A stretch of 64,000 nucleotides of DNA from Candidatus Omnitrophota bacterium (GTDB lineage: Bacteria > Omnitrophota > Gorgyraeia > B26-G9 > JBDRCZ01): the NCBI GenBank assembly GCA_043821285.1, contig JBDRCZ010000027.1, forward strand, positions 18,988-82,987. Direction: 5' to 3'. Both the position numbers and the translations under genes were made by a program. Every line of letters begins with the position of its first letter. Position 1 is the first letter of the stretch. The notes beneath the pieces were generated by a model. That model saw only the letters and a list, made by a program, of their open reading frames with translations. It was not told where the DNA came from and did not search any database. Below, piece after piece: positions 25,353-52,338 of the stretch.

Positions 25353-25460
25353 ATGACAGGCCTAAAACACAAAATATGGTTTAAGGCAATAGCATTCATT
25401 TTAATCCAGGCGTTTTTATGCCTGGATTTGTCATTTGCCGCTGGCGGCGATTTGAAAAAT
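25353..25460 (+). other. Conserved N-terminal leader (signal-peptide-like: K/R n-region, hydrophobic IAFILIQAFLCLDL core, AxA-like SFA|AGG site)
   Basis: Near-identical leaders start the genes at 47675, 51255 and 55592. Confidence 0.8.
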
Positions 25461-28400
25461 GTAAATTCTCTGCTCGCACCGACAATAAAATTAGATGAAT
25501 TAGAAGAAGTATTTAATAAAAAATATGTTGCAGAATCTCCAGAAGAACAGATACTTACCCAGAATTTTAATATCAAATTAAGAAAAACTAAAAAAACTAC
25601 AGAACAAGGCACCGCAGTTTCGATTACAGAAGAGCAAGCGGAGTGTATTAGAGCTGCGAGAACGGGTCTGCTTAATGAGTTTACAAACAAAGTATTTAAA
25701 CGTTATTTGACAGCAGTGCAGATAAATGTTCGCGAATTTTTGCCAAACATGGCTCAGCATATGAGCCGAGCGGAGATTAATATAGATGTAGTTGTCTTGG
25801 GTAATGAGACTGCAGTACGGCTTGCCTTATACCACGGAGCACTGCATGGCATTTTAGCTGAGGAGCGGGGGACAGCAGAAACACCGGAAGAGCGCTTTTT
25901 AGAAGAGGTATTTGTTGTACAAAAAGAATTAGAATATTTAAACAGCCTTTCAGAAAAAGAACAGGATAATTATCTAAAATTTTTGAAAAACTCCTACAGA
26001 ATAAACCACGCGGCATTTTTAAAATTATATAGCCGGTATAAAGAAAAGGTAAAAGAAGCAGAGGATAAGGGAGAGGCTCCAGACTTAAGAGTAATTCTGA
26101 GCATGATTGCCAGTTATGTGAAACAAGTCTCCCGGCGTGATAATGACTTTGGTCAAATAAACTTTGATATGCGCACAAATAAGGCCAAGGATGAGGTTCG
26201 TAAGGTAGTCGAGGGGATAGAGATAGCAAAGGAAACTTCTGCTGGAGCAGAGACATCAGAAGCAGACGTTGAGCCTAACACAGCAGCAATATCAGCAGAG
26301 GAATTAGAAGAAGAGGCAAAAACGTTGATAAAACGTTTTATTGATATTGTGTTAACGGTGACAGGGATTAATTTAATAAAAAGAATATACAATTATTTAC
26401 GTGAAAAGTTGTATTTATGGAACAAATCAAGAAAGCAAAGAAAGATTGAAAGACGGAATGGGGAGCTGGAGAAAATTGATCAGGATGACCCGGATTATCA
26501 AGACACGCTGTTTAAACTCTGGAAATTACAGGGATATGACATTAAATCCCTTAGACCACTATATGCATTAGCCAGACGCGTGGATAAAAGATATGCTGCA
26601 CTGAAGCAAGAACTGGAGACAGGTAATGAGCATATGATTGCCGGGAAGAGTAGAGCATTAAAAGACACAGTAACCCTACGGGTGAATAAACTTGCAGAGA
26701 ATGATACCAGAAATAGAAGCAAATTATTAGAACAGGTACTTAATGAAAATAATTATGCGCTTTTGATTGAGGCATTAGCACTGGTACAGGCTGCATTTAA
26801 CCAGGTTAAAGAGATTAAATTATATGATGTACAGATTATTGCAGCCATTGCCGCAAATAAAGGTGATGGGCAGATTATTAGATTATTACCAGGGGAAGGA
26901 AAGACTTATGTCGGAGCGGCGTATGCCTACCTTAACACTCTTGATGGTGCGAAGGTGCACATGCATACTACTTCTGAGTATTATGCTAAACGTGATGCTG
27001 AAGATGTGCGCGGAGTGTTAGAACTTTTAGGCTTAAGCGCTGCATGTTTAGAAAAAGAGAATGAGGAGAAAAAAGAGGCATATGCGGCCGATGTTCTCTA
27101 CGGGGAGAAATCTGAATTCGGGTTTGATTACTTAAAAGACAATTTGAAATATGAGTCTAAAGAAAAAGTTATGCATGGTCTATACCGGGCAATGGTAGAT
27201 GAGGTGGATTATAATATCCAAGATGATGGACGTACGCCACTGATAATCTCAGCAAGAAGTGTGGAAAATATTTCCGAAGTACTTTATATTGCCGTGAATG
27301 ATGTAGTAGCAGGACTTATCCGGGAACAAGCGGAACAAGAGCTTGAAGAAGATGAAAGATATTATGTGCTGGAGAATTTACCCGGCGATACGACTCCTGA
27401 AAAAGCTGCGAATTATACAACTCATTCTGTTGTGTTTACTGAGACAGGATTAAAAGCATTTGAAAAGCGTCTTTTAGAAAAAGGGTTAGCGGAGTTCTCA
27501 AAAGATGATTTTTTATTTTCTAAGACCCATTATTACATTTTTAGTATGGCGGTGCAGGCGCTGCGGGCGCATAAATTATGGTGTATAGACAAAGATTATT
27601 GTATTAATGAGGATAAAAAAGTTGAGCAAGAAAAAGATAGTCAAGAAGGAGATCAAAGGGCAGATACAAAAGATAAAGAGCCTAAAAAAGGACAGGTTGT
27701 ATTGATTGATGAAAGCTCGGGCCGTCTGATGGAGGGCCGGACATTAAGCCATGGGCTGCATCAGGCAATTGAGGCTAAACACCTAAGAGAAGTAATTACA
27801 GCTGATGAAAGGACTACACTTGAAATTAAAACGATTACCCCGCGTTCAGAAGCACAGGGCTCGATTACGGTAGAGTCATTTTATAAATTATATGAAAAAT
27901 TATCTGGAATGAGCGGGACTGTGGATGAAAATGAGGCCAGGCTCTGGGGACGGCAGGGTAAAGAAGTGGTAAGGGTTCCTTCAAATACCCTGCGCCAGCT
28001 TAAGGAGCATGCGGATAGATTATATCTTACCAACAGAGAAAGATTTGCGGCAATGGCAGAGGCGGCACAAGACAAGCAGACCAGAGGACAGCCAGTTGTG
28101 CTCGGGGTATTAACTCCCGAGGATGCGGATTTATTAAGCGGTATGATAGAGGAGCTTGGCATTGAGCATGAAACATTAGATGCGCGTAATCAAAAAGATG
28201 AAGAGCGGATAATTGCGCATGCCGGAAGAAAAGGCCGGGTTACGATTGTTACGAATATCGCGGGCCGGGCAACAAATATTGTTTTAGGCGGTAAAAAAGA
28301 AATACGTATTCAAGAATTAATATCAGAAGAGAGTCTCTCAGCAGAAACAGCAGAGAAAAGATATAAAGATGAAAAGCAGGAAGTTATTGCATTAGGCGGG

Positions 28401-31400
28401 TTATGCGTTTTTATTGCTGGTAGGCAGCCGAGTTCACGCGGGGATGAACAGTTTGAGACTAGAGCCGCACGGCAAGGCCAACCAGGAGAAAGCGGGCATT
28501 TTCTTTCAGCCGATGACCCGCTATTTGAACAAACCGGCACAAATAAAAAGGTTAGGGAATTAATCGAATATTATCAGAGCGAAGAAGGTAAAGGGGTGGT
28601 TGTCACCCATGTATTTAGAAAAGTTATCCATGAGGCACAAAAGAGATTATCACAGGTGCGGTTGCATGAGAAAAAGCAAACACAAAAATACGAAGAAGTA
28701 TTAGCAAACCAGCGGGAGACCTTTTATCGGTTAAGAGACAGGTTCTTGGAGGAGCCGCAGGAAACATTGCTTGAATTTGTGGAACAGGCGATTGATCTAA
28801 TATTTAGAGATGCGGAAGATATTGAAAAACAATTAGCGCTTGATCCTGAGCTTGCAAAATATAAAACAGGAATTTTAGATGAGGTAAATGAGATAAAAAA
28901 ACAAGGAAAAGATATAAAAGATATAGCAAGAAATGAGGGGATTGTTAGAGAAGATGAATTAAGTAGACTTACAAATTCAGGTGTATTGCGTTTAATGTTA
29001 CAGCGCCAATTTATTAGAGACAAATTTGCTGTTTTTTTAAATATTGGTCTTACAAATGAACAATTAACGTTTTCTAAGGAGCAACTTAAAAATGCAGTAA
29101 CGCAGGCATTAGAACACAGGGCAATATTAGCTAGGCTGATATTGCAGATGTTAGATTTATCTTGGCAGAGACACCTTGGGGATATTGAGGAGTTAAAATG
29201 GGCAATTAACTTTCGGCCGGGTGATGAGCAGAAAAAAGCAGCAGAATTTGGCATAGATGCATTTAAAACCTTTCAGGCAATGCGGGATGAAAATTATTTG
29301 GATGTTTGCGGGGTGGTATACAAAGGCTGGAAGAGATATTTTCGTGCGAAAGCAAAAATGATAGGCCGCCAGAAAGAAGAAGATGGAGAAGTGCCAGAAG
29401 AAGTGCAGGAAAGATTAAAAGACTTAGATGAGCGATTAGGTGGTAAATGGGATTTTCTTAGCAGCCGTAGCGGTCAGGCAGCTGCTACGGGAGGAGTGAC
29501 AGTAGTTGGGTTAAGCGGGATAGTCTATGGTTATGCTGCGCCAATGATACAACAGTCACTACATGATGCTAAAATTGAGCAAATGAATGAGGTATTAGAA
29601 GCGCTTCAGGTATTAGATATAACTAAAGCAACGCAGCTAATTGAAAAATATAATTTAGAAGATACTTTTAATCTTGGCGTAAACGAAGAACAATTGCAAC
29701 AGGAAAAAGACCTTAAGATTATAGAAATAGTATTGTCATCAGATTATACAATAGAAGATGAAGAAGGCGGGCGTTATTTAAGTGTTAGCAAAACAGATGC
29801 AGAAACAGGAGAAGAGGAGCAGACAGAGAAAATTGCGCTTACCTCAGAAGACGATGAAAACCTTGTTACGCGGTTAGAAGAGATAAAAAATAATCCGTCT
29901 GAGATAGATAAAGTAGCACAGGTTATCAAGTTAATAATCGAGAAGGGATTATTAGAATCATTAGGTGGTGACGAGGCTGTGGATGCAAATACAGGTACAG
30001 CCACAGCAAATCAAGATGGACAGGAAAATGGAGCTGCTGGTGAGACCGGCGAATTATTATCTGCAGAGGGCGACGAGGTATCAGATGAGCGTGAAGGAGC
30101 AGGGCAAGCTACTGCCGGAGCCGGGGGTAAAGAAGGAGAGGTTTCTATAGATGAGGAAAAGGCAAAGATAGAAATATCGCTACAGCAGATAATAGATGAA
30201 AATGAAGAAGAGACAGTAAGGACGCTATTATTAAAGGCGTTAATTAAAGATCTTATCAGGTCAGAAAATTATACTTATGCAGTACAAGAGACAGATGAAG
30301 GAGTTTATTTAAACATAATCAAAATAGATACGGAAACAGGAGAAAAGGAGCAGATAGAGAAAATTACGATTACCGAGGAACAGAAAACGATAATCGAGAC
30401 AGTGGGAGTAGCAGAAGAGGAGAGGATAAAGGCAGAAAAAAGGGGGCCGCAAAAACCAAGTTTGTCGGATTTATTTTTATCTAGTGCTACGTATTTAGTT
30501 CTCACAATATTATGGCTATACGCTGCGTATCGGAAATACAAGCATGCTAATACAAAAAGAGAACGTTATATTGCCTGTTTAATGGGATTGTTCGGTGTGA
30601 TTTTTGTCGGGGTTGGATTATTAGGTGCTGGGCCAGCTTTTAATTGGCATGCATCACTGTTTGCGCAGGAGGTAATACATCCGGATTTATTAGAAGAACC
30701 TAAGGAAGAGGTGACAGGAGAAGAAATCGAGCTTGAAGAGGAACTGCCGGAGTTAAATTTTCTTGATGAGGTTGAAGAGCTTAAGGATGTAAGAGACTAT
30801 ATTGCAAAGAGATTTGCGGAATTAGAAGAAGATTTACAAAAAGCCATGGGCAGAATAGATGAGATAATTGAAGATGAGTTATTGGCAAAGGTTAGATATG
30901 TACAAGCAGAGATGGATTTAGAAACTGCCGGCGGTAAAGAGGAAGAGGCGCTGCAGGACCTGCGAGATGCCCAGCAGACATATGATCAACAGGTAAATGA
31001 TTTTGAAGCGGCAACGAACGCTCTGATACAGGTATTAAATACAGAGATTGGGTCAGTTGAAGAGATGGTTGAAAAATTAGATAAAAAGATTGCTAATTTT
31101 ACTGCATTGGATGAAAGGTTAGCAGAGCGGTACGAAAAGACAAAAGAGTTAATTAAAGGTTATCAACAAAAATTAGTAGATATCAGAGAGCAGATTGAGA
31201 CAAATGAGACAACACAGGGAGATTTACAAGAGAAAATAAGGCTTTATGAGCAGCTGAATAACGAGATAATTCCCAAACAATTAGCAGATTTAGATGAGAG
31301 TATTGCATTTGATCAAGCGTGTATTGATGCCCTTACAGCAGCCGAAGATAAAATGGCTGGGCTTACAGCTAACCAAGAGGCCGCACGTCAGAAATATATA

Positions 31401-34400
31401 GATAACCCAATTACCGGACAAAAAGGGTTAATTAGTAGATTTAAGGATAAATTAACAGAGCTTAATGGATGGATAACTGATATTACAACAATAGAACTGC
31501 CAAAATATGATGTTTTTATTACAAATTTTAATGCAGCATTACAGAAGTTTAATAATTGGCTTAAGGATTTTGATGCTGGGGCAGCAAAAGAACAGGCAGC
31601 AAAAACACAACTTGAACAGGCAAAGCTTAGATATGGAAATCCGAGTCCTCCAGCAAATCCTACGGATTCGAATTTAGTAAACCAAGGCTGGATACCCGCG
31701 TTATATTATGACCAATGGTGGGTGGGAGTAAAAAAAGGTGTGGCAGAAGGAGCACAGAGTAGAGCACAAGCTGAGCTGGCTAAGGCAGAGGAAGGAGTTG
31801 TTCAAGCAGAAGAATTACTGCAGAGTTTAAGGGCTGGATTAGACGAAGTGCGGAAATTACCAGACACAATTAAAGTACCAGCAACACCAACAGTAACCCC
31901 AACAATAACTCCGACAGCAACAGTGACAGTAACGCCAAGTCCGACAACAACAGCAACGCCTTTACCAACTGGAACACCGAGTCCTGCGGCAACAGTAACG
32001 CCGGTAACAAGCCCAACAGGCACACCAATAGCAACGCCATCGCCAGCACCGACGTCGGAACCAACCACAGCGCCAGCAACGCCATCGCCAGCATCGACAA
32101 CAGAGCCAGCCCCGGCAGCACAATCACAAGGTGATACAACTACTGAAACAACTACTACTGTGCAATTAAACATTGGGTCCTTAAATATTAGTTTTGCCAG
32201 AATATTTGGGCAGAGAGGAGCAAGTACTGGTTCTGCGGGATTTAGTATTGGACCGTATGGTTCAGGCGGACTTGCTTGTGTAGGGTTAAGTGTTATGGGC
32301 GTGCTAAGGACCGCGGATATACCAGATGACACAACTCCTGATACTGCTGCAACAACCAGTGATACAGACACAACAGATGCAACAGATACGACTACACCAG
32401 ATGGGACCACAGATGTATCACCGGAAGATACAGCACCAGTTATGATGGATATTTTGAATGCAGAAAAGATAGATAAAGTTGCATTCTTTGAGGCAATGGT
32501 GAAGGTTGCTGAGTTTGGGGGCGCGACGTTTATACAAAGAGGGGGAGAAGAAGATATTGTTATTGTAAAAGATGTAGATGGAACTGTGTTATATGAAAAT
32601 AGTTATAAAGAATGGATGGGACATGTTGGTAGTGGTCATGTTTTTGTAGGGGTGTCCGGGGCGAAGGCTTATCGGGAGGCTGTAACAAGAGGCGGCTATT
32701 CTGAGATAACTGAGAATAATGGGGTAAGAAAGATAACATATTCTACGGTTCAAAACGGGTACACGGAATTACTTGGTAGTGGCGCAACAGCAGAATCGCG
32801 TACTTCTCCCACAAAAAGATATATGGAGGTAAATGTACATGGGGCAACGGTGTTAGCACAGATGCTTACTGTGGGCGGGTATATGCAAAAAGATTATAAT
32901 GGCAATCCGGATATTGTAGCCGTGCATTTGTCCCGGGCAGTAGAGATTGATGGAATAACTTCGGACATCTTTTTTGTTACGCCAGTAGCAACAGCTCCTC
33001 CTGGTGACCCGGGAGATCCTTATTCAGCAGTTTATCCGGATATGACCCCGGGAATAGAGGGAACAAATAATGTGCTTAATGCCATGAAAGGGAGTTATTC
33101 ATTTGAGGTACAGGGAGACTGGACGGTTTGGACGAGTGTAGATGTAAATACAGGAGTTGTTACACAATTCCGGACACCAGCAATGCCGCAAACCACAGGG
33201 CATGATTTTCCCCAGACAGGGGGATTAGCAGGTGTAGATGCTTTACTTAATGCGATTGGGGATGAAACAACTAATCGGCATTCTTATTCATTTGAGGTGG
33301 AAGAAAACAGGATTGTTTTAACCGTGGTTAATGTTGATACCGGAGAGATAACCACTTCCTATCTTACGAAGGCTGCGGATGGAACCCCAATAGGTATTGA
33401 TATTGATGATAAAGGCGGAGTTGCGGCCCGGTCGCGGATTAAAAAGGCATTAGAAAATAGTTATGCAATAGAAATTCAAAATGTAAACGGTAAACTCCGG
33501 GCATATTGGACGGTAGTGGATGTAGATACAGGAAAGGTTATTGATGATTTTTATACTGCGGCAAGCAGTACGATTACTCCTGGTTGGGATTTTCCCTTAA
33601 CCGGCGGGAAGGCAGGTATTACAAAAATCATCGCAGCATTGAATGGCAGTTATTGTATCCTTGATTCAAATAATGGCGTGACTAAATGGTTAGTTGTAGA
33701 TGTGACAACCGGGGCAAAGCAGTATTTTTATACAGCAACTACTGGAGATAAGCCGGTTCCGGGGTATGATATCCCGGATATCGGCGGTAAGCAAGGTTTA
33801 GACTTGATTGTTACCCGGGCATTGTCTAAGCAATATGAGATTGTATTACAGACAGATAAAGAAGTAGCACAATGGAAAATTTATAATATTGCTACCGGGG
33901 AAGAAATTATCGGGCAGGGCTTTTTCACTGCGGCTAATCCGAACAGTCCTGCTGCGGCTGGTGGTATGATATATGCAGTAGATGAAGATTCGAAATATAA
34001 CTTTGATAAACAAGGGGGAAGAGAGGACTTAAAAAATGTAATCTTTGCCTTAGAACATAGTTATATATTTAAAGATTTAGGTGATGGCCGAATAGAATGG
34101 ACCGTGGTTTCAGATGAGGCAGACGGCACATACAAGGTAACGAAATTCTTTACCCGGAAGATAGATAATATTATCCCGGAATATAAATTGGATACGGTCG
34201 GGGGATTAAAGGCGATAGAGTTAATACTCCAGGCGTTAAATTCAAGTTATAAAATTGTTAAGACAGAAAATGGGGTTACGGAATGGCTGATGGTGGATGT
34301 GAAAACCGGTGAGGTAAAATGGTTTCATACTGTGGCGGTGGATAAGATTCTGCCGGGATTTGATATCCCAAAAGTTGGAGGTATTGAGGCCGTAAAAATG

Positions 34401-37400
34401 ATAACCAAAGGTTTAAATAGTGCCTATCGGATATTAGGGGAAGTTAATGGGGTGACGAACTGGGTGATTGTTGATCCGGAAGTACCCCCGGATAAGGGAG
34501 GACTAGAATATTTCTATACCGTTGCCTTAACTGAAGCAGAAACAGATGAATATCCCGAGTTTAAGGTGTCAAAGGTCGGGGGCAAAAAATTAGCCCAGCA
34601 GTGGCGAGATTATGCCTTGCCCGGTACCTATAAGATTGGCGAACGTATTGGTCCTGAAGCTCCGCTTACAAATCAAAATGTCGTGCGTTTTGACGGCGGG
34701 ATGGCAACAATAGTAAGGGTTATTGATACGTATACCGGTGCGGTTAAGCATGTATTTTTTTCGCCCTATATGACCCCGGAAGAAGTAGAAGAGCTAAAGC
34801 AAAAAGATCCGACCTTTGTTTTTGATATGACCGGCGGAAAAGAACTGTATGAGCGGCTGTATAATAGCCAGGCAATGGCATTAGGGTTTAGCTTTGGCCT
34901 AACGCGGGACGAAGGCGGGGTAACTGTGAGTCAACAGTTAATTATCTTTGACCCGGATAGCGAGGCAATATCAAATAGTCTTTATGTGCCATTTATGACG
35001 GAAGCAGAATGGAGCCAAAACCCGAGCACGCGGTTAGATATAACCGGCGGGATAAAACTGCTGCAAAGAATAAAATTAGCTATGGAGAATGCGTATAAGA
35101 TTGGTGAACAGATTACCGTAACAAAAGATGGGGTTAATTTAACACTACAGATTGTGCGGGTCTGGGACCCGCATACTGGGGAGGCGGTAAAAGACCCGCT
35201 TACCGGAGAAATGATTGACCATTTTTACATGCCGGTAATCCCGGAAGAATTACTGGATATTATTTTTGAAGGCCGTGAAGAAGAAAGAAAGGAATTTGAA
35301 GAAAGTAAAACATTAGACTTAGCCAGCGGATATAAGCTGATTGAAGAGATTATAATAAAGGAGATGTTAGAGGGGGTTTATCGCTTAGGCGAGCAGTCAA
35401 AAGAAAAGTCGCATTTAATGGACGTGTATTTGATTGACCCAGATAAACTGGACATAGATACAAAATATGTGCCGTTTCTTAGTGAAGCAGAACGTGCTCA
35501 GGTACCAGAGGATGACCTTCTGGCGCAGCTGTTAAGTAAGGTAGATTTAGTCGGCGGCTTAGGATTAAATGAGAAAGACCGGGAATTGCTTAAAGGTACC
35601 TATAGAATCGTGGGGCGCCTTAGTGAAGAGGAAGGGACTCCCGAGAAATGGGGGGGTGTTGTGCATATCTATAATCCGAAAACAGGTGAAGTTACCGAGG
35701 AATACCGGCCGTATCTTACACCAGATGAGGTAGCTTTAAATCCAGATTTTGCCATACCGAATGTTGGCGGAATAGAGTCATTAGAAAATTGGCGCAGTGG
35801 GATTATTGATGGGTATCTTTTACGGCCTACGCCAATTGAAGTAAAGGGAGAGAGAAAAAATAGTTTTCTGGTCAGGATAGATACGATTGATATTGAGACG
35901 GGTGAAAGAGATCAATTTTTTGTTTCTTATATGACACCAGAAGAATTAGAAAAAGAATTAGAATTTAAGCCGCCGTTTAGTGTTAGTTCGAGATTTCTTA
36001 GAGAGGTTAGAAATTCTTTAGACACCGGCGGATTTTATCTTAGGGACCGGGATGAAACCGATGAAGTGGTTGAGTATTTAGTTTTTGACGGGGAAGGTAA
36101 TGCTGCTCGAGAACTGCACGTTTTTGAGATTCCTGAGGAATATCAGCGTATTAAAATACCCAAAGCCACTGCGGGCAGGGGAAATTTTGAACTTTTCAAG
36201 CGCGTATTAAGAGAAGGCGGATTTGGGAAGAGAGTAAGTGAGGAACGCCTGGCCCTTTATAGTGTGGCGAATGGCCATGAGGAATTAATTGGTCATATCC
36301 CGTATATATTTGGGGATAAAGAAATAGCAAAGGGGTTTGAAAAATTAGAAATTGGTGAGACTGTGGCTTTCCCGGGTGTAGACGGGGCGCAGTTTATGTT
36401 GGATATGATTACTGGATACGGCGGGTATATAAAGAGAATTAGTGAAAACGTAGTAGAGATGGGTAATACTAATGGTGAAATAAAATATGCCCCATATACC
36501 GAAGAAGAAGGTGAGCCGGGCATGGAAATTGGCGAATGGGTGCCGATAACCGGTAAAAAGGCCGCTGAACTAATGGACTATTTGGCCACAGATAGTAATG
36601 GCGGCAGGATCACAAGAATTGATGAATATTTTTCAGAGGTTAAGGTATTTTATGAAGACCGGACAGATAGATTTGTAGTTCCGTACGTACCACTTAAGTA
36701 TCGTTCTGAGCATGAATGGGATGAATTAAAGCAGAGGATGCAGGAACAATTTGGCTTAAACGAAGAAGAGATGCAGCAAATCGAAGGGGTAATAAAGGAA
36801 CTTAAGGCAGAAGAACTTAATATTGGGGAGTATGTTTCCATATTTAGTCTGAAAAATGCTGAAACTTGGCGCCAGGTGAATGAAGAAAGCGGTTATTTTG
36901 TCCGGGATGGGGATATTGTCCGGATATATAATTTAAAGAGCGAATTAATCGGCATTGCCCCTTACCAGAATATTGCGGAATTATTGCGGCAGCAGAAACA
37001 AAAAGAAGGGGAAGAGCCGGAAGAACTAAAGGAATTAGCAGATGGAGACTGGGTGCCGATATTTACCGCGGAGCAGGCCGAGGCAATTATTAAATTAACC
37101 AGAGAAGGCGGCCGGGTAAAACGCTTAAGTGCTTATATAGTTGAGCTGCAGGATGAGTATGGGAACCACCTAATGCTCGCACCATTTGAAAACCCCAAAT
37201 TTAGAAAACCAGGAAGACTAGAACAGCCGACACTGCCGGTAGGCAGGAGTATTGGCGTGGGCGGGGCAAAACTTCCGCGCATGTACAGTGAGCCAACAAG
37301 AGATGGTGAAGGCAATTATATATATGAGGTAACAGATTTAATCGGGAATAAATGGACCGAGGTATGGAATAAAAATGCCGAGACAATAATAATAATCCGC

Positions 37401-40400
37401 GAGGGCAAAGTAACTCAAACCTTGGCATTCCTTGGCGATGCTGTAGATATACCCGCGAAAACTTTAACCATTGATGTAGATGGCAGTAAAATCCTAAAAG
37501 AATATGACCATGAGAGATCCCGAGAGAGTGGGATGCGGGTATATAAGGTTACAGAGCTGAATGATGAGGCAATGCCGGAGGATGATATTATTACTTATGA
37601 ATATTTTAATATTACCGGACAACTCGTGAAGACCGAAGGTCTCACCATGGACACAATAAATCATGAATTTTTAAAAGACGGCCAGACGGATGTTGCGAAA
37701 AGCGGAGAAAAGAGGAATAAAAAAGGCGAACTTGAAGAGACATTTGAATTTGCCTGGCGGGTTTATATGGGGGAAGATAGTGAAGGGAATAAGATTTATG
37801 ATAATGTTTATAAGGTTACGGAAGTAAATGATGAGGAGACAACAGAAGATGATGTTATTAAATATGTGCAGTATGACAGCCGGGGTGAGGCGCGTGCTAC
37901 TTATTATCTTGGTACCGAAGTAGTAAATGGAACAACAGTAGATGGTACGGTAGTCATTGACACGGGTGCGTCTACAGACATACTTTCTCCAGAGATACAG
38001 AAGAGATTAAAAGAGAGAATAAGAAAGAGAATAGTAGAAAGATACAAAAATGAGTTTGTTGATAGCTATATAGCAGAGCATGACTTGACCAGAGAAAATT
38101 TTATTAAACTATTAGATGCGAACATTGTTGAAAGGCTGAAGCTGGGGGTGGTTGATAATCCGGGATTTAGAGAAGAGTTTGAACAGGAAATTAATGCATA
38201 CTTAAAATCTGTACAACAACAAATCGAAGACGAAGTTGCGGCAACATATGATAAGACATATAAAGATAAGTCCTTAAAGCCGATTTACTATTTTAAATGG
38301 AATGAGGAAAATAAGGGGGTTGATATTTTAGAGGGATTAGGGACTAAGGGTTTTGTTATTGACTCTGGGGTGCGGGTGTTTAGTATTGAAGATAAACATG
38401 TGCCGTTTGCCTTAATTCAGGAAATAGATAATCTTGGTGATGTGACCCGGGAATTCGGTATTGTTGACGGCAAGGAACAGTTTAAGATAAGATTTGGCGA
38501 GGGATTATTTATTGTTTCACAAGAAATTTTACAGGCATTAGAAGAAACAGAAGAAAGAGGAGCAGCTTATACCGCAAAATTAGAGCAGAGTAGATTTATT
38601 GCCAAACAGCGGGTATCTGAGTCACAGGAAATACAATATGATGCCCTGCCGAATGAATGGAAAGAAAAGGTAGATAAGATTATTGCGGATTTAAAAGAAC
38701 AGGGATTTATTCCCCCTGACCCGCAGAAGCTTACCTGGATGGAAATCCGGACTATTAACCCGGAAAAACCGGATGATGTATTAGTTACTTCTTATCAGGC
38801 ATTTAGCAAAAAAGATACCCCAGTAATTAAGATTGGGGGGCAGTATTTTAAATATGAAGGAGATAAACAGGCGAAATATGAGAGTCTGATTGATATTGAG
38901 GTTGGGTATGAGGATAAACTTTTGAGTTTGCGTTTTGATTTAGATTTAGTTGATGAGAATTTTAACTGGCGGAAAAGATTAGAGGCATTAAGCTATCACA
39001 TTACCCCGCATGAAGAGGTAATCATTGACCTCTATAGTTCGTTATTGTTTAAGGATTTTAGAAATAAGACGGATGGGTTCTGGGAACAAAGAAAACACTT
39101 GATTAAAGACGGGTTCTTTAATTATGACATTGACTGGATGTTAAACAATTTAAAGGATATTGCCCGGCTAAAAGCAGAAAGAACGGAAACATTTAATTAT
39201 GACACTTATAAATACGATATTACGCTGCTGATGGCATTAGAGGTTCCCGCGGCCCCGGTAACCTACATGCATATTACTAATGATAAAGGCGAAGATGTTA
39301 TTATTGGTAAAGCAGAATTAAATGACATAGATTTTACCCGGCGCTTAATTAAATCCACGAACATGATCAGTTTTTACCGCGATGAAGCCGGGAAGAAAAA
39401 AGCCGCAGATATTCCGTATATTTCCATGCGTGATTTTAAGGGCAATGTAGGGGTGCAATTTTACTTAACTGACGAAGGACCGGTGTTAGGGATTTACTCC
39501 TGGGATTTTGATAAACACGGTATTAGTGATAAATCAATGACCGTATTTAAAACTACTGAGGGCTGGCAGCTATTAGAATCAGCATTTTATGAAGGCGTTG
39601 CGAGCATGCCGCTTAAAGGGTTAGATGAAACAGAAAGTATGGAACGGGTATTCTTTTTTAATGGGATTAGATTTGCGGAAAATATTGGGTTTGAGGTTAA
39701 TGAAAATGATTTATATATTGAACCGAGCAAGCTGCAAGAAACACTTGTCGCCGTATTAGCGGACCCGGTAAATATATTAGACAGGCATAAGATTGGGAAA
39801 AACGGTGAAGGTAAATTAGCTTTAAGATTAGACGGTTATAAATTAGATGACTATGGAAAGGCAATGGGTGATCCTAAATATGTTGCCTTTGTGCTCTACA
39901 AAAAAGGAGCGCTGATTAGTGCGACCGAGGCCGGGCCTTTACATTTTGGATTTGGTAATGAAAGTTATGTTTATTTGTACGATCCGGGTAAAGGATTTGA
40001 TTTGCCTGAAGAGCAGGATGTGCTTAAAGGACTTAATGCTGCGAAGTATAGCGAGCTTAGCTGGAATGCGCAAGTTCAGAAATGGTTAGGCTATGATATG
40101 AATAGTTGGGAAGAGAGCAATTGGGTTGCGCATGCATGGAATCCCCGGGTAGAAAGCTTTGAAAAAGCCGGGACGATTAAACCGGAAACCTGGGCACGTT
40201 ATCCAGGAAAAGAAAAGACCGGTATTTTTTACGATGTTATAGACCATCGTGCGGGTAAAGAAGGTCTTTATATGAACGCACACCTTATCTCCAGTGGTGT
40301 GCTGGTTATTGAGGCATATGAAAGAGTGGACTCTGAATTTATGCCGGATGCTTTCAATATACGCCGGGTTCCACAATTAGTTATTTATGACCCCAACTCC

Positions 40401-43400
40401 GCACATATCCAAAAGCCAATAATAAGTATAGAACAAACAAGCGGGAACTCGTTAGCAGAATTTGAGGTTTCAGAACCAATACTGGTAAAAGAAGGAGATG
40501 GATACATTTGGGTTGTGAGGATAACTGTTAATGGATATGAACCATTTGATCTATTTAAAATTGTGCAGAAAACAGAATATAGATATGTTGCCATAAACAC
40601 CGGTACCTCACACGGACCAGTACTGATTAATAATCAACACCTGTCTGCTCCAGCAGATGAGCCAGATACTAGTGCTGCTGTTGTTCCAATGTTTGTTAAT
40701 CCAGTGCCAGATTTGGCAACGTATGAAATTTGGGATTTTGAGGAACACGAAGGCCATGGGATTGATATCCCAGTCGTAGCAGGAACACCAGTATATGCAA
40801 TAGCAGACGGTGAGGTAATATTTTCTGGTGAGGATCCAAATGGTAAGAAGGGCTATGCGGTAATTTATGTAACAGAAATTCCAGATGATAAAGGACAGAT
40901 GGAAAAATATGCCGTAGTAAATGGGCATTTAGATGAACACGGGCGCATTGAAGAAGGACAGCAGATTTTTGCTGGTGATACGATTATCGGCAAATCCAAT
41001 GGAGCAAAATATCAGCCGGGAGTCACGCAAGATAGTACTGGACCACATTTACATTTGGGGATGTGGCGTATTACAGGTTTAGAACATTATTCTAATCAAG
41101 AGATTGTCAAAGCGATTTTACATTATAATAGAAAGAGTTCTATAGATCGACAAATAGTTCCAAAAAGGCGGGTAGATCCAGAAAAAGTTTTAGCAGATGC
41201 CGGGGCAGTTGATATCAAAGAACGGGAAAAAGCAGTAGCATTAGCAGCAGCGCAATCCTCACAAAAGACCCCAACACCAACTCCGCAAAGAATCGCTTAC
41301 GCATATGCCGTTAATGGTTTGCCAGTGACACTGTCAGAGTTTTATCTTCATCAACAGACTGGCGGAGCAGCTGCACAAGAAACCCTGCAACAAGCTGATT
41401 TATCTTCAGAACAGAAAAATGGTACGGATAATAGAGCATTATACTCTCAAAATAGAGCCGAAAATAAAACAGAGAATGCAAATAATGATAAGAGAAATTT
41501 TGTTATGATCATCGCGGCATTTTTAGGTTCAAGGCTTATTATGCAATGCATCTACTGGGGGATCCGGTATTTTGGTCTGCTGCCGAAGCTCAGGAAGACA
41601 GAAGAAGAAAAATTGATATACAATCCCAAAAATCCGATGGCAGAAAGAAGACGGGCAGAAAAATTACTCTGGACCAAGCCGGCCTTTAGCACGTACAGGA
41701 TTAGTCCGGAAAATGCAAATCAGGTCATCCATGAATTAAGAGAGAAACAGGCAGCAGAACAAGCAGGGCAGGCGGAACCCGAAGATACAATAGTGGTAAT
41801 AATTGAAGCTGATGACGAGACTATAATCTATAATCTTACTCCGGCGGAAGCTGATGAACTGGGACGCGCGTTATCGGGAAATGTAGTATCTGAGGAGAAG
41901 GCCGGTATAAATATAAAGATTGAAGTGGAAAACTATACCTATTCTGAAGGCCCGCTTGAGGGGAATTGTAAGGAACAGCTGCGGCACCTTTATTATTTTA
42001 TTATGGAATGGCGAAGATTAGAAAATGAGTGGGCGGAAGATGACGAGCACTTGCTTGGCGGGACAGATGAGTGGCTTAATGGTCTGGATGTGTTTTCTAA
42101 TCTGCTTTCTTTCTATGTAAGAAGAGTGGTATTTGAAGGGGAAAAAGATAGCCGGATTACAGAAGACAGCAACCATATCTTTGACCGGATGAATAAACAT
42201 CTTGGGGAACTCACAGTATTCGTACGGGAATTACTCCAGGAGTATAAAAATGCGGCAACTGATGAGGAAAGAACAGGGATTAGTGGGACAATAGGGGATG
42301 TGTTAGGAGAAAAAGGGATTAAACCAAGAAAAGCGGAGTTTATTATTCCGGAAAAAAATCTCAGAATTATTCAGCAGTTTATCCAGGACACTATAGATGG
42401 CCGGGACACTGACACTGACACTGACACTGACACTGACACTGACACTGACACTGACACTGACACTGACACTGACACTGACACTGACACTGACACTATTGTA
42501 AGAGAGATGCAAAGCATTATCGGTGAACAGTTGCTTGTAATATCAAGGGATGATACGAAGGTTGAGGTTACAAACAATAATTGGGAAAAGATTGTTGTCT
42601 TAATCAGTAATCAACTCGATGGCGTAGAGGCAGCAGATATAACTGATGTTGTCGAAAAATATAAGTTGTTCAAAAAAAGAGAAGGTTACGACCTTTTGCC
42701 TGTTTTTGCCTGGTTTCTTGACCCGATCCGGCTGCTATTCATGTTTGCGTTTTCAGGATTAGGTATTGCAATCTGGACAAATAATGATTTTATTGGCGGA
42801 CCGACAGTATTACAATTTTTGCCAGAGTTATTTTCCGCGATTTTAGCACTTAATATTTGCGGTGTGCCTTTCTGGCTGCTGGGGCTGGCTGGTGCAGTAC
42901 TTAATTATATTGCAAACAAAGTAAGTGAAAAGGCGCGTTATCCGGGAGAAAATCCGGTTATTTCTTTTTTGCCCCGGATAGTGCCAGTAAGTTGGTTGTT
43001 TGGAAAAGATGTTGTTAAGGGAAGGTATACTTTTGAGATAAAGGAAGGACGCGGATGGGATCCTACGTTCTGGAGGGTAGCATCTTATATTTTTAGAATG
43101 GTGTGTTCTTTAGGCATAACACTAGGTATATGGTTTGTGGTTATTCCTAATCTGATTACCCCGGGACATGATATAATTCAATGGCTCATCGCCGGAATAG
43201 TTTCCCTTATCGCATTGTTAGACTTTTTTGGCTTATTTTTTATTTTAGTAAATAATGCCTTATTTGAAGGGATACAGGAGGCAGTTGAATCCAATAATAC
43301 CAGTAGACAAATGCAGCAAGATCAGGGTATAGCTAATAGAATACGCGGATTGTTTATGAGTATCCTTAGGTTAATACCTATGCGTGGGCTTAGATTTCTT

Positions 43401-51254: not shown

Positions 51255-51352
51255 ATGTGTCAATTAAAGCAAAATATCTTATTTAAAATAATAGCGGTAG
51301 TACTGATAAATGCCTTTTTCTGTATGGATATTGCCTGGGGCCGGCCTATAGC
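51255..51352 (+). pseudogene. Decayed third copy of the shared leader (MCQLKQNILFKIIAVVLINAFFCMDIAW-), frameshifted and truncated; the rest of the 255-aa ORF is spurious read-through over the antisense brnTA
   Basis: The leader and 5' UTR (GTATTTGGTGAGATATG) are homologous to the copies at 47675 and 55592. After GCCTGGG the sequence loses ~25 nt relative to the paralogs, and the frame changes. The downstream ORF body overlaps two well-supported minus-strand genes. Confidence 0.6.
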
Positions 51353-51410
51353 ACTGCTTCACACCGATAGTATCGGAATTCCTGTTGGGAACTTAGTGAT
51401 TTATCTGCGA

Positions 51411-51683
51411 TTAGGAATGCCGGAGATGATGCCGTTCTTTAGCCAGGCGTTCACTGATCCAAGAACGGATAAGACTAAGATACCCCAGCCCCTTATCTGC
51501 AGCGATTTGTTTAAGAGATTTAATCTGCGGTGTATCCAAACGCAAGGAAATGAGTTTCTTTTTTGGACGAACAAATTCTGCTTTTGCTGGGGTGAGTTCT
51601 TCCAAAAATTCTGTGATGCTATGACGATCCCAGAATTTGCGTTCTTCCTCAAGAGACTTAAATTTTGGTATTTTTCTTTTCAT
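51411..51683 (-). CDS. brnA: BrnA-family antitoxin (CopG/RHH-type)
   Basis: 90 aa. The pattern KSLEEERKFWDRHSITEF ... ISLRLDTPQIKSLKQIAADKGLGYLSLIRSWISERL is typical of BrnA antitoxins. It lies immediately downstream of brnT. Confidence 0.8.
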   Translation of the reverse strand: MKRKIPKFKSLEEERKFWDRHSITEFLEELTPAKAEFVRPKKKLISLRLDTPQIKSLKQIAADKGLGYLSLIRSWISERLAKERHHLRHS

Positions 51684-51689
51684 AATTCG

Positions 51690-51956: not shown

Positions 51957-52338
51957 ACGTACACCTCAGTTAATAGTATATTTCGAAATACAAAAGATGT
52001 CAAGAGTTTTATGCAACGATAGGAAAATAGCAAGGACACAGTTAATTGCTTATTTTTTAACAACAAATCGCACATGTTGTACGGATTTTTAATATTTGTG
52101 TTATCTGAGCTATCTGTGGTTAAAAAGATTCTCCCGTAAAGCCGCAAGGTTTGCTTAAAGTAATACTTTTCAGTTATACTCAGTACTGCTACACCCATCT
52201 ATCCATGTGATCTACCCATATACTCATTCCCCCATCTTTTACAAAATTCAACTTTTATACAATATTTCAATTTTCTCTTGACCATACAAAAATTGTATGG
52301 TACATTAGATGTATGGTTTACGGCAGGAGGGATGCATA

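What the first reader, a model, noticed from the sequence alone, without database searches (positions are those of the whole stretch)
26700..28830. Complete SecA-like ATPase motor embedded downstream of a secretion-type leader
The colinear motif series reproduces NBD1, the preprotein-binding insert, NBD2 with its arginine finger region, and the start of the helical scaffold of SecA. The series runs GEGKT, YAADVLYGEKSEFGFDYLKDN, DEVDYNIQDDGRTPLIIS, LIDESSGRLMEGRTLSHGLHQAIEAKH, FYKLYEKLSGMSGT, TNIAGRATNIVLGG and GGLCVFIAGRQPSSRGDEQFETRAARQGQ. Walker A and the DEVD box are intact, so the domain is probably catalytically competent. The puzzle is topology. The protein begins with what looks like a cleavable Sec signal (AxA-like SFA|AGG). 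A conventional reading of that signal would put an ATPase outside the cell, where there is no ATP. Three readings remain. The leader may be an uncleaved anchor or targeting helix. The hydrophobic segment around FIDIVLTVTGINLI (~aa 330), before the SecA domain, may re-invert the chain. Or this may be a divergent, membrane-tethered SecA paralog dedicated to a private cargo set, namely the leader family.
Basis: partly seen in the sequence, partly recalled or inferred. Interest (0 to 1): 0.85.

Follow-up and report, generated by a model that had tools for sequence, protein, structure and literature searches.

The report
SecA motor built into giant protein
The flagged stretch is a real, complete but very divergent copy of the bacterial protein-export motor SecA, built into a 7,342-residue membrane protein of an Omnitrophota bacterium. 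This kind of fusion has already been reported for that phylum, but here it sits behind an undescribed, conserved leader that is shared with other ATP- and SAM-type enzymes, so which side of the membrane it works on is still open.

Summary
Window 26679-29318 (aa 443-1322 of one ORF, 25353-47381, 7,342 aa) encodes all four SecA Pfam domains. An AlphaFold model matches only SecA structures, and every ATPase residue invariant in 50 other SecAs is kept.

The module is not a housekeeping SecA. It scores 477 bits against an equivalog cut-off of 814, is 31% identical to ordinary SecAs, sits on a long branch, and lacks the finger-tip tyrosine and the Zn tail.

The organism is an Omnitrophota MAG. SecA-like domains in Omnitrophota giant proteins are already described (West-Roberts 2023), although those were said to lack the wing/scaffold that is present here.

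New here:
- The leader is a real family: 4 genes in the window and 14 more in metagenome loci.
- Its cargo is cytoplasm-type enzymes: a second SecA giant, PPDK_N, PEP-utilizer, PGM/PMM, ATP-grasp, methyltransferases and a PGK-like domain.

Best reading (about 0.5): a membrane-tethered, cytoplasm-facing motor that exports the protein's own 3,600-aa ectodomain, which carries ~15 repeats and an M23 peptidase. Export of the motor, for example into a host cell, is not excluded.

The parts
25353..47381 (+). Single ORF of 7,342 aa (giant multi-pass membrane protein) that contains everything below
   Evidence: ORF list. A Shine-Dalgarno-like AAGGTGA lies 7 nt upstream, with an AT-rich promoter-like region. 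Neighbouring proteins are named 'Candidatus Omnitrophota bacterium' in NCBI.
25353..25442 (+). Conserved leader (aa 1-30): basic n-region, 13-residue hydrophobic core LIQAFL, D, then SFA|AGG. It is a member of an 18-sequence family.
   Evidence: KD 2.15. Positions -3/-1 are small in all 18 members. No Pfam or NCBIfam model matches it.
25443..26321 (+). N-domain aa 31-323, with no detectable homologue apart from the short LAPxLxI motif that follows the leader
26322..26378 (+). Weak hydrophobic helix aa 324-342 (TLIKRFIDIVLTVTGINLI), followed by a K/R-rich stretch.
   Evidence: KD 1.43, Hessa sum about +7.5, K+R 1 before and 4 after. Helical in the AF2 model. No counterpart in L005.
26679..29318 (+). 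Complete SecA module, aa 443-1322. NBD1 is aa 443-864 with PPXD inserted at about aa 627-825; NBD2 is aa 884-1077; scaffold, wing and two-helix finger are aa 1086-1322.
   Evidence: Pfam, NCBIfam, PDB phmmer, E. coli alignment, AF2 plus Foldseek.
26883..26906 (+). Walker A, LLPGEGKT (K517 = E. coli K108)
27198..27209 (+). DEVD box (D616/E617 = E. coli D209/E210)
28437..28481 (+). Motif VI, RGDEQFETRAARQGQ. R1029, R1037 and R1040 are kept (E. coli R566, R574, R577). Unusual changes are R572->E and D580->Q.
   Evidence: D580->Q is shared with the L005 SecA; the 50 other SecAs have D in 47 and E in 3.
29193..29264 (+). Two-helix finger, LKWAINFRPGDEQKKAAEFGIDAF. The tip tyrosine (E. coli Y794) is Gly here.
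   Evidence: Ungapped alignments. Other SecAs have Y in 37, F in 5 and H in 2.
29493..29549 (+). Gly-rich weak hydrophobic segment aa 1381-1399 (GVTVVGLSGIVYGYAAPMI) just after SecA. It is a candidate membrane crossing that would separate a cytoplasmic SecA from the outside.
   Evidence: KD 1.46, Hessa sum +4.9. L005 has a stronger TM in the same relative position (aa 1158-1176, KD 1.86). The AF2 model is uninformative here (pLDDT about 26).
30471..30626 (+). Strong TM hairpin aa 1707-1725 and 1740-1758, joined by the basic loop RKYKHANTKRERY
   Evidence: KD 1.75 and 2.45; loop K+R = 6.
30627..41498 (+). Presumed ectodomain aa 1759-5382. It has an acidic coiled-coil-like stretch, Pro/Thr linkers (nt 31875-32123 and 32325-32438), ~15 tandem ~70-aa repeats (nt 33039-35948) and an M23 peptidase (nt 40755-41069).
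   Evidence: Composition, repeat HMM, linkers, Peptidase_M23 9.4e-11 and MepM-like.
41499..41555 (+). TM aa 5383-5401 that closes the ectodomain
41904..47033 (+). C-terminal ~1,700-aa polytopic module (aa 5518-7227). It is shared with 4.3-4.6-kaa proteins of Verrucomicrobiota, Planctomycetia and an ENA contig, none of which carries SecA. Function unknown.
   Evidence: Negative Pfam and PDB searches. Failed AF2 model.
47675..51160 (+). Leader-family gene 2: a 1,161-aa membrane protein with a degenerate PGK-like domain (NCBI MFH1776477.1)
51255..52022 (+). Leader-family gene 3: the leader followed by Phe/Cys-rich sequence; possibly a remnant
55592..60343 (+). Leader-family gene 4: 1,583 aa, no Pfam domain (NCBI MFH1776483.1)

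Best explanation
Window 26679-29318 encodes a complete, catalytically intact but highly divergent SecA translocation ATPase. It is fused into the N-terminal part of a 7,342-aa multi-pass membrane protein of an Omnitrophota bacterium.

The most likely working model is as follows. The motor sits on the cytoplasmic face, where ATP is available. It is held at the membrane by the polypeptide itself, through the N-terminal hydrophobic leader and the Gly-rich segment at aa 1381-1399. This tether replaces the lipid-binding N-terminal helix and the SecB/Zn tail of free SecA. Because the motor is made and folded first, it is in place when the ribosome produces the TM hairpin (aa 1707-1758) and the 3,600-aa ectodomain of repeats and M23 peptidoglycan peptidase. 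It then drives that ectodomain through SecYEG in cis, acting as a self-export motor.

What is shown: SecA identity, domain completeness, conserved ATPase residues, the membrane segments, and the extracellular-type content of the ectodomain.

What is inferred: the cytoplasmic location, that aa 1381-1399 spans the membrane, that the leader does not carry the chain across, and the cis-export function.
For: SecA identity:
- All four SecA Pfam domains are present.
- NCBIfam SecA gives 1.1e-142.
- Only SecA and SecA2 structures match the model.

Selection on ATPase function:
- Every residue invariant in 50 other SecAs at the ATPase site is kept.
- The same residues are kept in a second leader-SecA protein (L005) that is only 26% identical.
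- This argues for selection on ATP binding and hydrolysis, and hence for a compartment that contains ATP.

Architecture:
- A hydrophobic segment follows the SecA module in both proteins: giant aa 1381-1399 and L005 aa 1158-1176.
- The ectodomain has Pro/Thr linkers, ~15 tandem repeats and an M23 peptidase. It is bounded by TMs whose basic flanks face away from it.

Evidence that what follows the leader is cytoplasmic:
- In five other family members, the first TM after the leader has a K/R-richer N-flank than C-flank. The margin is clear in four (5/2, 3/0, 3/0, 5/0) and slight in one (4/3).
- The C-terminal hairpin of the PGK-like protein points the same way.
- Leader cargo is dominated by ATP-, PEP- or SAM-dependent enzyme domains.

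Literature:
- West-Roberts et al. 2023 (10.1101/2023.11.21.568195) proposed self-export for SecA-like domains of Omnitrophota giants.
- They also report normal SecA genes in the same complete genomes.
Against: - The leader has the full anatomy of a cleavable Sec signal: a basic n-region, a 13-residue hydrophobic core, and small -3/-1 residues in 18 of 18 members. By default this would move what follows across the membrane.
- Counting strong TMs only, SecA and the M23 ectodomain fall on the same side.
- The segment aa 1381-1399 is only marginally hydrophobic, and the AF2 model says nothing about it.
- The two-helix-finger tip tyrosine is Gly here and Lys in L005. A review (PMC3101351) says this tyrosine is replaceable only by bulky hydrophobic residues.
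- D512->N, G510->A and R572->E fall at positions that are nearly invariant elsewhere.
- No dedicated topology or signal-peptide predictor could be run, and no orthologue exists to test conservation of the weak helices.
Confidence: 0.5

Rival explanations
1. Private-cargo accessory SecA. The tethered motor works mainly in trans. It recognises the unusually conserved leader (K..IFKIIAvvLIQAFLxLDvAWaGG ... TLAPxLxI) carried by neighbouring genes and exports or inserts that client set, much as SecA2 systems serve special substrates. This does not exclude the cis model.
For: - Four same-strand genes in 35 kb share the leader (pairwise E from 1e-5 to 1e-12, homology confined to the first 24-56 aa).
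- Fourteen more leader-bearing ORFs lie in 7 metagenome loci, clustered 2-4 per locus.
- One of them (L005) again pairs the leader with a SecA module.
- Conservation in the hydrophobic core and c-region (I and F invariant; Q/N, D/E and W nearly so) goes far beyond what signal peptidase needs, which suggests a specific receptor.
Against: - The SecA protein itself carries the leader.
- The cargo consists of cofactor-dependent enzymes that would be useless outside the cell.
- Several leader loci show no SecA within the 20 kb fetched.
- There is no SecY2-like or other partner among the ORFs of 150 aa or more that were scanned in the window.
- All SecA2 HMM scores are far below their cut-offs.
Confidence: 0.2
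2. The leader is what it looks like: a cleavable export signal. The SecA module and the other leader-tagged ATP- and SAM-type enzymes are exported. They then work in an ATP-containing space outside the cell, most plausibly the cytoplasm or membrane of a host or prey cell to which this host-dependent nanobacterium attaches.
For: - The leader has canonical n-h-c anatomy, with a hydrophobic core short enough for a signal peptide and -3/-1 small in 18 of 18 members.
- L005, L006 (PPDK_N), L008 (PEP-utilizers_C), L005-4962 (PGM/PMM plus methyltransferase) and L011-9123 (ATP-grasp plus methyltransferase) have no TM between the leader and the enzyme domain.
- With strong TMs only, the giant's topology satisfies the positive-inside rule with SecA outside.
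- Omnitrophota are described as predatory or episymbiotic, with giant proteins implicated in attacking prey.
Against: - There is no precedent for an extracytoplasmic SecA.
- Positive-inside flanks of the next TM in five family members put the post-leader segment inside.
- Sec export of large, fast-folding enzymes is difficult.
- The PGK-like domain has lost hallmark nucleotide-site residues, so not all cargo need be active enzymes.
Confidence: 0.15
3. The re-inversion topology. The leader exports aa 31-323. The helix at aa 324-342 then brings the chain back in, so SecA is cytoplasmic, and aa 1381-1399 takes the chain out again.
For: - A K/R-rich stretch directly follows aa 342 (4-5 K/R in 15 residues) and an acidic stretch precedes aa 324.
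- The region is helical in the AF2 model.
- This gives the best simple positive-inside tally for the giant, 18 against 10. That figure is my own count from the flanks listed.
Against: - The apolar run is only 14 residues and contains Asp and Asn. KD is 1.43 and the Hessa sum about +7.5.
- L005 has no hydrophobic segment at all between leader and SecA (maximum KD 0.55).
- Most other cargo also has none.
- The solution would therefore be specific to this one protein.
Confidence: 0.1
4. A SecA-derived ATPase that no longer translocates polypeptides through SecY. It might act as an ATP-driven clamp, assembly factor or regulator within the giant protein.
For: - The finger-tip tyrosine is lost in both leader-SecA proteins, Gly in one and Lys in the other.
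- Both sit on very long branches and are only 26-34% identical to any SecA.
- D580->Q is shared.
- The equivalog cut-off is missed by a wide margin.
Against: - The PPXD, scaffold and wing, which are specific to polypeptide handling, are retained over about 880 aa.
- The module sits directly upstream of a very large exported segment.
Confidence: 0.05

Closest known systems
SecA-like domains embedded in giant multi-TM proteins of Omnitrophota (West-Roberts et al. 2023, bioRxiv 10.1101/2023.11.21.568195; also the 20-protein PF07517 architecture cluster of Nielsen & Lui 2026, 10.64898/2026.06.07.730766)
   Same: - Same phylum.
- SecA_DEAD and PP_bind lie inside a very long membrane protein.
- The SecA is long-branch and divergent.
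- The localisation is equally puzzling.
- Self-export has been proposed for these domains.
   Different: - Those domains are reported to lack the wing/scaffold. In the archaeovorin and dockerin types they lie near the C-terminus, after the TM anchors.
- Here the wing, scaffold and NBD2 are all present.
- The module is N-terminal, directly behind a conserved leader.
- The protein is 7.3 kaa rather than tens of kaa.
Housekeeping SecA (E. coli P10408; NCBIfam NF009538 / TIGR00963)
   Same: - Colinear NBD1-PPXD-NBD2-HSD/HWD.
- All ATPase motifs are kept.
   Different: - 31% identity.
- 477 bits against a cut-off of 814.
- Fused rather than free.
- No N-terminal amphipathic helix as such and no C-terminal Zn/SecB tail.
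- Y794->G, D512->N, R572->E and D580->Q.
- Three insertions of roughly 13-26 aa in and around the PPXD.
Accessory SecA2 systems of Gram-positive bacteria and mycobacteria (TIGR03714, TIGR04221, TIGR04397, NF012136)
   Same: - A second, divergent SecA alongside a presumed housekeeping one.
- A dedicated client set marked by an unusual leader is conceivable.
- From my own knowledge rather than a test here, SecA2 clients include peptidoglycan hydrolases and cytoplasm-type enzymes.
   Different: - All SecA2 models score far below their cut-offs.
- The module is not free-standing.
- No SecY2 or Asp partners were seen in the window.
- The phylum is different.
Cleavable Sec (signal peptidase I) signal peptides, and specialised leaders such as YSIRK or KxYKxGKxW
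   Same: - n-h-c anatomy.
- Small -3/-1 residues in all 18 members.
   Different: - Conservation lies in the hydrophobic core and c-region, not the n-region.
- Cargo is cofactor-dependent enzymes.
- The flanks of downstream TMs argue that the chain stays inside.
- No curated model matches.

Membership tests
SecA protein-translocase ATPase (Pfam PF07517, PF01043, PF21090, PF07516) | NBD1 with Walker A lysine and a DExD box | tested here: met
   SecA_DEAD 2.7e-59. K517 and D616-E617-V-D619 align to E. coli K108 and D209-D212.
SecA protein-translocase ATPase (Pfam PF07517, PF01043, PF21090, PF07516) | Preprotein cross-linking domain inserted in NBD1 | tested here: met
   SecA_PP_bind 5.1e-15, above its cut-off. 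It is colinear with E. coli aa 220-375, with insertions. AF2 confidence is low there.
SecA protein-translocase ATPase (Pfam PF07517, PF01043, PF21090, PF07516) | NBD2 with the motif V and VI arginines (E. coli R509, R566, R574, R577) | tested here: met
   P-loop_SecA 1.5e-44. R972, R1029, R1037 and R1040 are kept. D512->N and R572->E are atypical.
SecA protein-translocase ATPase (Pfam PF07517, PF01043, PF21090, PF07516) | Helical scaffold, wing and two-helix finger | tested here: met
   SecA_SW 9.2e-18. Foldseek aligns about 910 columns to full-length SecA, TM(target) 0.73. The finger alignment is ungapped.
SecA protein-translocase ATPase (Pfam PF07517, PF01043, PF21090, PF07516) | Bulky hydrophobic residue at the finger tip (E. 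coli Y794) | tested here: not met
   Gly1290 here. Other SecAs have Y in 37, F in 5 and H in 2. The requirement is as stated in PMC3101351.
SecA protein-translocase ATPase (Pfam PF07517, PF01043, PF21090, PF07516) | ATP-driven translocation of polypeptides through SecYEG | not testable with these tools
   Needs biochemistry.
Housekeeping SecA equivalog (NCBIfam NF009538 / TIGR00963) | Score above the curated equivalog cut-off; a free-standing protein of about 800-1,000 aa | tested here: not met
   476.9 bits against 814, and 459 against 800. The module is embedded in 7,342 aa.
Housekeeping SecA equivalog (NCBIfam NF009538 / TIGR00963) | It is the genome's only SecA, or alternatively a canonical secA exists elsewhere | not testable with these tools
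   Only this window is available, and it holds no second SecA. West-Roberts et al. report normal SecA alongside giant SecA in complete Omnitrophota genomes.
Accessory SecA2 (TIGR03714, TIGR04221, TIGR04397, NF012136) | Score above the family cut-off | tested here: not met
   334 against 930, 262 against 725, 373 against 1085, and 283 against 1100.
Accessory SecA2 (TIGR03714, TIGR04221, TIGR04397, NF012136) | Linked SecY2 or accessory secretion genes | tested here: not met
   None among the 20 window ORFs of 150 aa or more that were scanned with Pfam. Smaller ORFs were not scanned.
Omnitrophota giant-protein SecA-like domains (West-Roberts 2023) | Divergent SecA_DEAD plus PP_bind inside a very long multi-TM protein of Omnitrophota | tested here: met
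Omnitrophota giant-protein SecA-like domains (West-Roberts 2023) | Absence of the scaffold/wing domain, as those authors describe | tested here: not met
   SecA_SW is present at 9.2e-18. L005 also keeps a recognisable finger and scaffold remnant.
Omnitrophota giant-protein SecA-like domains (West-Roberts 2023) | Falls in their distinct phylogenetic clade | not testable with these tools
   Their sequences are not held. In 1.84 billion representatives, the best 150 hits are all proteins of 728-1,647 aa at 31-39% identity.
Cleavable Sec signal peptide (for the leader) | Basic n-region, hydrophobic core, small residues at -3/-1 | tested here: met
   18 of 18 members.
Cleavable Sec signal peptide (for the leader) | What follows is extracytoplasmic | tested here: inconclusive
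   Cargo is ATP-, PEP- or SAM-type enzymes. The flanks of the next TM favour 'inside' in five members. The giant's strong-TM parity favours 'outside'. Only hydropathy and charge counts were available.
Peptidase M23 (for the ectodomain) | Pfam score above cut-off and an HxH motif | tested here: met
   42.2 bits against 28.7. PHLHLG is present. The first metal motif reads HGID, one residue shorter than the usual HxxxD, and was not examined further.

The most novel reading that the evidence does not exclude
The conserved leader is a dedicated sorting signal of a so far undescribed pathway. It sends a set of ATP-, PEP- and SAM-dependent enzymes out of the Omnitrophota cell and into an attached host or prey cell, where those cofactors exist. 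The set includes SecA motors, PPDK-like, PGM/PMM-like and ATP-grasp enzymes, and methyltransferases. The exported SecA giant would then act from the host side, for example by engaging the host's own translocon or membrane.
Probability: 0.12. Interest if true: 0.92.

Novelty: new variant of a known kind. Interest (0 to 1): 0.62.

Why it matters
Moving multi-thousand-residue ectodomains across a membrane is an open problem for giant bacterial proteins. A motor hard-wired into the cargo would be a simple answer, and this 7.3-kaa example is the most tractable case so far. It has a complete SecA with scaffold and wing, placed N-terminally, and it is small enough to clone in pieces.

The window also exposes an undescribed and strongly conserved N-terminal leader. 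It looks like a Sec signal yet is attached to enzymes that need cytoplasmic cofactors. Either a textbook rule for reading signal peptides fails for this family, or a host-dependent nanobacterium exports ATP-using machinery. Both options can be tested directly with topology reporters.

Tried and rejected
- **Generic DEAD-box helicase.** Rejected. PPXD, NBD2 and scaffold/wing are all detected. Non-SecA helicases appear only from rank 37, at E of about 5e-5.
- **Close relatives of the SecA module.** None found. The word-indexed search and the full HMMER scan of 1.84 billion representatives returned only SecA-sized proteins at 30-39% identity.
- **Homologues of the non-SecA parts.** Only the C-terminal module has relatives: P0121, a Verrucomicrobiota protein and a Planctomycetia protein. 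None of them has SecA.
- **C-terminal module as a processive glycosyltransferase.** This idea came from memory of FKS, cellulose-synthase and chitin-synthase motifs (ISED...FTAFxRW). It has no support. PDB profile searches were negative, Pfam on all four members was negative, and the AF2 model was unusable (pLDDT 34), so no fold search was run.
- **Leader profile against the 5.8-billion protein index.** No hits. This is uninformative, because the window's own leader proteins are in that collection and were also missed.
- **Leader against NCBIfam, and leader strings in the literature.** Nothing found.
- **Double-glycine (C39 peptidase) leader.** The register fits the AAGG variants, but it fails for the AWCG and AWSG variants, and no C39 or ABC exporter is in the window. 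Not pursued.
- **Lipoprotein, Tat or prepilin leaders.** The motifs are absent.
- **Exact-match look-ups of neighbouring proteins for contig context.** These failed.
- **NJ tree.** It does not place the two leader-SecA modules as sisters. It is too crude to decide between one fusion and two.
- **AF2 model for the weak helices.** Uninformative for aa 1381-1399.

Full report
**1. What is at the coordinates**

The flagged interval lies inside a single uninterrupted ORF, 25353..47381 on the + strand, encoding 7,342 aa. The start codon is the first after an in-frame stop. It has AAGGTGA 7 nt upstream and an AT-rich, promoter-like region in front.

- Pfam finds SecA_DEAD (aa 443-864, 2.7e-59), SecA_PP_bind (5.1e-15), P-loop_SecA (aa 884-1077, 1.5e-44) and SecA_SW (aa 1086-1322, 9.2e-18).
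- NCBIfam SecA models reach 1.1e-142.
- E. coli SecA structures match at 5.8e-94.
- An AlphaFold2 model of aa 300-1450 (pLDDT 62, best in NBD2) retrieves SecA or SecA2 for its first 36 Foldseek hits. The best is 4.4e-37, with about 910 aligned columns and TM 0.73 on the target. Other helicases appear only from E of about 5e-5.

**2. State of the motor**

I aligned the module to E. coli K-12 SecA and to 50 diverse SecAs.

Residues kept (E. coli numbering first):
- K108 maps to K517.
- D209/E210/D212 map to D616/E617/D619.
- R509 maps to R972.
- R566, R574 and R577 map to R1029, R1037 and R1040.
- Q570 and Q578 are also kept.

All of these are invariant in the 50 comparators.

Departures at normally fixed positions:
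- G510->A.
- D512->N. The comparators have D in 49 and N in 1.
- R572->E.
- D580->Q. The comparators have D in 47 and E in 3.
- Y794->G at the tip of the two-helix finger. The comparators have Y in 37, F in 5 and H in 2. The alignment is ungapped.

There is no C-terminal Zn/SecB tail. The PPXD region carries insertions.

The module scores far below the housekeeping-SecA and SecA2 equivalog cut-offs.

On 811 well-aligned columns it is 31% identical on average to ordinary SecAs, which average 45% among themselves. It has one of the two longest terminal branches in an NJ tree.

Neither the word-indexed search nor the exhaustive HMMER scan of 1.84 billion representatives found any closer relative. 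The best 150 hits are all proteins of 728-1,647 aa at 31-39% identity.

**3. The host protein**

The rest of the protein was mapped with hydropathy and charge counts and domain searches.

- Leader: aa 1-30.
- An orphan N-domain: aa 31-323.
- A weak hydrophobic helix: aa 324-342.
- The SecA module: aa 443-1322.
- A Gly-rich weak hydrophobic segment: aa 1381-1399.
- An acidic loop: aa 1400-1706.
- A strong TM hairpin: aa 1707-1725 and 1740-1758, joined by the very basic loop RKYKHANTKRERY.
- A 3,600-aa segment: aa 1759-5382. It has coiled-coil-like sequence, Pro/Thr linkers, ~15 tandem ~70-aa repeats (aa 2563-3532; HMM) and an M23 peptidase (aa 5135-5239).
- A TM: aa 5383-5401.
- A linker containing (DT)15, encoded by a perfect (GACACT)15 repeat.
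- A ~1,700-aa polytopic C-terminal module.

That C-terminal module is the only non-SecA part with homologues. These are a 4,589-aa ENA protein (P0121), a 4,326-aa Verrucomicrobiota protein and a 4,623-aa Planctomycetia protein, at 26-31% identity. None of them has SecA or any Pfam domain. Within that family, therefore, the SecA fusion is peculiar to this Omnitrophota protein. The function of the C-terminal module stayed unknown.

**4. Organism and prior knowledge**

Exact matches of neighbouring proteins are NCBI entries MFH1776461-MFH1776483, named 'MAG... [Candidatus Omnitrophota bacterium]', on an 86-kb contig.

West-Roberts et al. 2023 already report several relevant points:
- Most giant Omnitrophota proteins carry divergent SecA_DEAD and PP_bind domains on very long branches.
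- Normal SecA genes coexist with them in complete genomes.
- The domains may export the giant protein itself.
- Those domains lack the wing/scaffold and, in the types they detail, lie near the C-terminus.

Nielsen & Lui 2026 list a 20-protein PF07517 architecture cluster and stress that topology calls for such proteins are unvalidated.

The kind of object is therefore known. This one differs in having a complete SecA, placed N-terminally behind a leader, in a comparatively small protein.

**5. The leader family is real and broader than the window**

Four same-strand genes in the window share the first 24-56 residues and nothing else. They start at 25353, 47675, 51255 and 55592. Pairwise identity is 40-69% with E from 1e-5 to 1e-12.

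A pattern scan of metagenome contigs with this alignment returned 7 loci. These hold 14 further leader-bearing ORFs, clustered 2-4 per locus.

The 18 sequences align without gaps over K..[IL]FK[IL]IA[LV][IV]LIQAFLxLD[VI]AW[AC]G. I and F are invariant. L, A, Q/N, D/E and W are present in at least 16 of 18. Small residues occupy -3/-1 in all. A second motif, TL[AS]Px[LI]x[IL], follows 10-25 residues later.

No Pfam or NCBIfam model matches the leader, and no paper in the library contains its core strings. The taxonomy of the metagenome contigs was not determined.

**6. What the leader is attached to**

Domains found behind the leader:
- A second SecA giant, L005. It is at least 3,413 aa and runs off its contig, with SecA_DEAD 6.9e-64, PP_bind and P-loop_SecA.
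- PPDK_N plus the PEP-utilizer mobile domain (3.6e-77).
- PEP-utilizers_C.
- PGM/PMM domains I-IV plus a SAM methyltransferase plus TPR.
- ATP-grasp plus a methyltransferase.
- HEAT repeats, in two proteins.
- In the window, a PGK-like domain (4.8e-22).

The PGK-like domain has lost hallmark residues, such as GGAKV->GGGND and GGGD->SGAS, when aligned to yeast PGK. It may not be an active kinase.

The L005 SecA keeps all ATPase residues. It shares D580->Q, and it also lacks the finger-tip tyrosine, which is Lys there. It is nevertheless only 26% identical to the window's module, while each is 31-34% identical to ordinary SecAs, and NJ does not pair them. One old fusion with fast divergence or two separate fusions are both possible. 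The shared D580Q and the loss of Y794 lean towards common ancestry.

**7. Topology: what can and cannot be said**

The leader has the exact anatomy of a cleavable Sec signal. With strong TMs only, the giant's charge distribution is consistent with aa 31-1706, including SecA, lying outside.

Four observations argue against this.

- (a) Two modules as diverged as these still keep every ATPase residue. This implies selection for ATP use.
- (b) Most cargo needs ATP, PEP or SAM.
- (c) In five other members, the first TM after the leader has a K/R-richer N-flank than C-flank: 5/2, 3/0, 3/0, 5/0 and 4/3. The basic flanks of the PGK-like protein's C-terminal hairpin also put its long middle segment, and hence its post-leader segment, inside.
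- (d) Both leader-SecA proteins have a hydrophobic segment shortly after the SecA module. If that segment spans the membrane, it puts SecA and the ectodomain on opposite sides.

It has no counterpart in L005, where the maximum KD between leader and SecA is 0.55.

My automated parity count gave mixed results, because it depends on which weak segments are counted. No dedicated predictor was available. The sidedness of SecA is therefore inferred, not shown.

**8. Most likely mechanism and its rivals**

Best reading, at about 0.5: a cytoplasm-facing SecA motor tethered by its own polypeptide, made before its cargo, that drives the downstream 3.6-kaa ectodomain through SecYEG in cis. The ectodomain's repeats and M23 peptidase suggest attachment to peptidoglycan and cleavage of it. 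That fits the cell-wall-attack role proposed for Omnitrophota giants.

Rivals:
- A trans-acting 'private' SecA for the leader family (0.2; compatible with the cis model).
- Genuine export of the motor and the other enzymes to an ATP-containing space such as a host cell (0.15).
- The re-inversion topology (0.1).
- A SecA-derived ATPase that no longer translocates (0.05).

The lost finger-tip tyrosine and the Sec-signal anatomy of the leader are the main facts that the best reading does not explain.

**9. Verdict**

SecA domains in Omnitrophota giant proteins are known only at preprint level. This one is a new variant: it is complete with scaffold and wing, N-terminal, fused to a C-terminal module otherwise found in other large proteins of related phyla, and paired with an undescribed leader family.

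Interest is moderate to high. The reason is less the SecA itself than the leader paradox, which now extends to a whole family of enzyme cargo and can be tested with simple reporters.

Noticed in passing
window 25353-25442, 47675-47770, 51255-51340, 55592-55680; loci L005-L011: There is a conserved N-terminal leader family with 18 members. The core is LIQAFLxLD[VI]AW[AC]G, followed by a downstream TL[AS]PxLxI motif. Members cluster 2-4 per locus and carry ATP-, PEP- or SAM-type enzyme domains. No Pfam or NCBIfam model and no literature match was found.
   Followed up: yes
window 47675-51160 (+): This 1,161-aa protein is named 'phosphoglycerate kinase' by NCBI (MFH1776477.1). It consists of the leader, 2 TMs, a PGK-like domain and 2 more TMs. 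The PGK nucleotide-site motifs are degenerate (GGAKV->GGGND, GGGD->SGAS), so the name is probably wrong. Its aa 530-603 also resemble giant aa 6985-7070 (35% over 86 aa, E 5e-5).
   Followed up: partly
window 51255-52022 (+): This ORF has a good leader followed by Phe/Cys-rich sequence of implausible composition and no domains. It may be a decayed or frameshifted member of the leader family.
   Followed up: no
window 42405-42494: A perfect (GACACT)15 hexanucleotide repeat encodes (DT)15 in the linker before the C-terminal membrane module. With 100% repeat identity, it could vary in length between cells while staying in frame.
   Followed up: no
window 41904-47033; L001 887-14656; L003 476-13456; L004 89-13960: The ~1,700-aa C-terminal polytopic module is conserved (26-31% identity to the giant) at the C-termini of 4.3-4.6-kaa proteins of a Verrucomicrobiota MAG, a Planctomycetia MAG and an ENA contig. 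It has invariant motifs DTGIN, NKY, LDRNA, TTN, GISED and FTAFxRW and no Pfam or PDB match. The ENA homologue sits beside VgrG-like (Phage_GPD, base_V, Gp5_trimer_C) and PG_binding genes.
   Followed up: partly
window 33039-35948: There are about 15 tandem copies of a ~70-aa repeat (..GG..A...I..AL..SY.I....NGV..W.VVDV.TG....FYT..) with no Pfam match. Two weak partial copies (i-E 0.004 and 0.05) lie in the loop aa 1400-1706.
   Followed up: partly
window 18260-21454 (-): This 1,064-aa protein has an ordinary-looking signal peptide (MKFLKLFFLFSFAFFHISFAAA), then dienelactone hydrolase, a CheR-type SAM methyltransferase and TPR domains. It is another case in this genome of a signal-like N-terminus in front of a cofactor-dependent domain.
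   Followed up: no
window 52309-54191 (+): An ATPase_2/AAA gene and a Polbeta-type nucleotidyltransferase gene sit between leader-family genes 3 and 4. They look unrelated to the cluster and may be an inserted defence or toxin-antitoxin-like pair.
   Followed up: no
L005 9953-20192 (contig Ga0180009_10000523): This is a second leader-SecA giant, at least 3,413 aa and running off the contig end. It shares D580->Q with the window's module and also lacks the finger-tip tyrosine, which is Lys here. It is only 26% identical to the window's module. Just upstream (4962-9698) is a leader-bearing PGM/PMM plus methyltransferase protein.
   Followed up: partly
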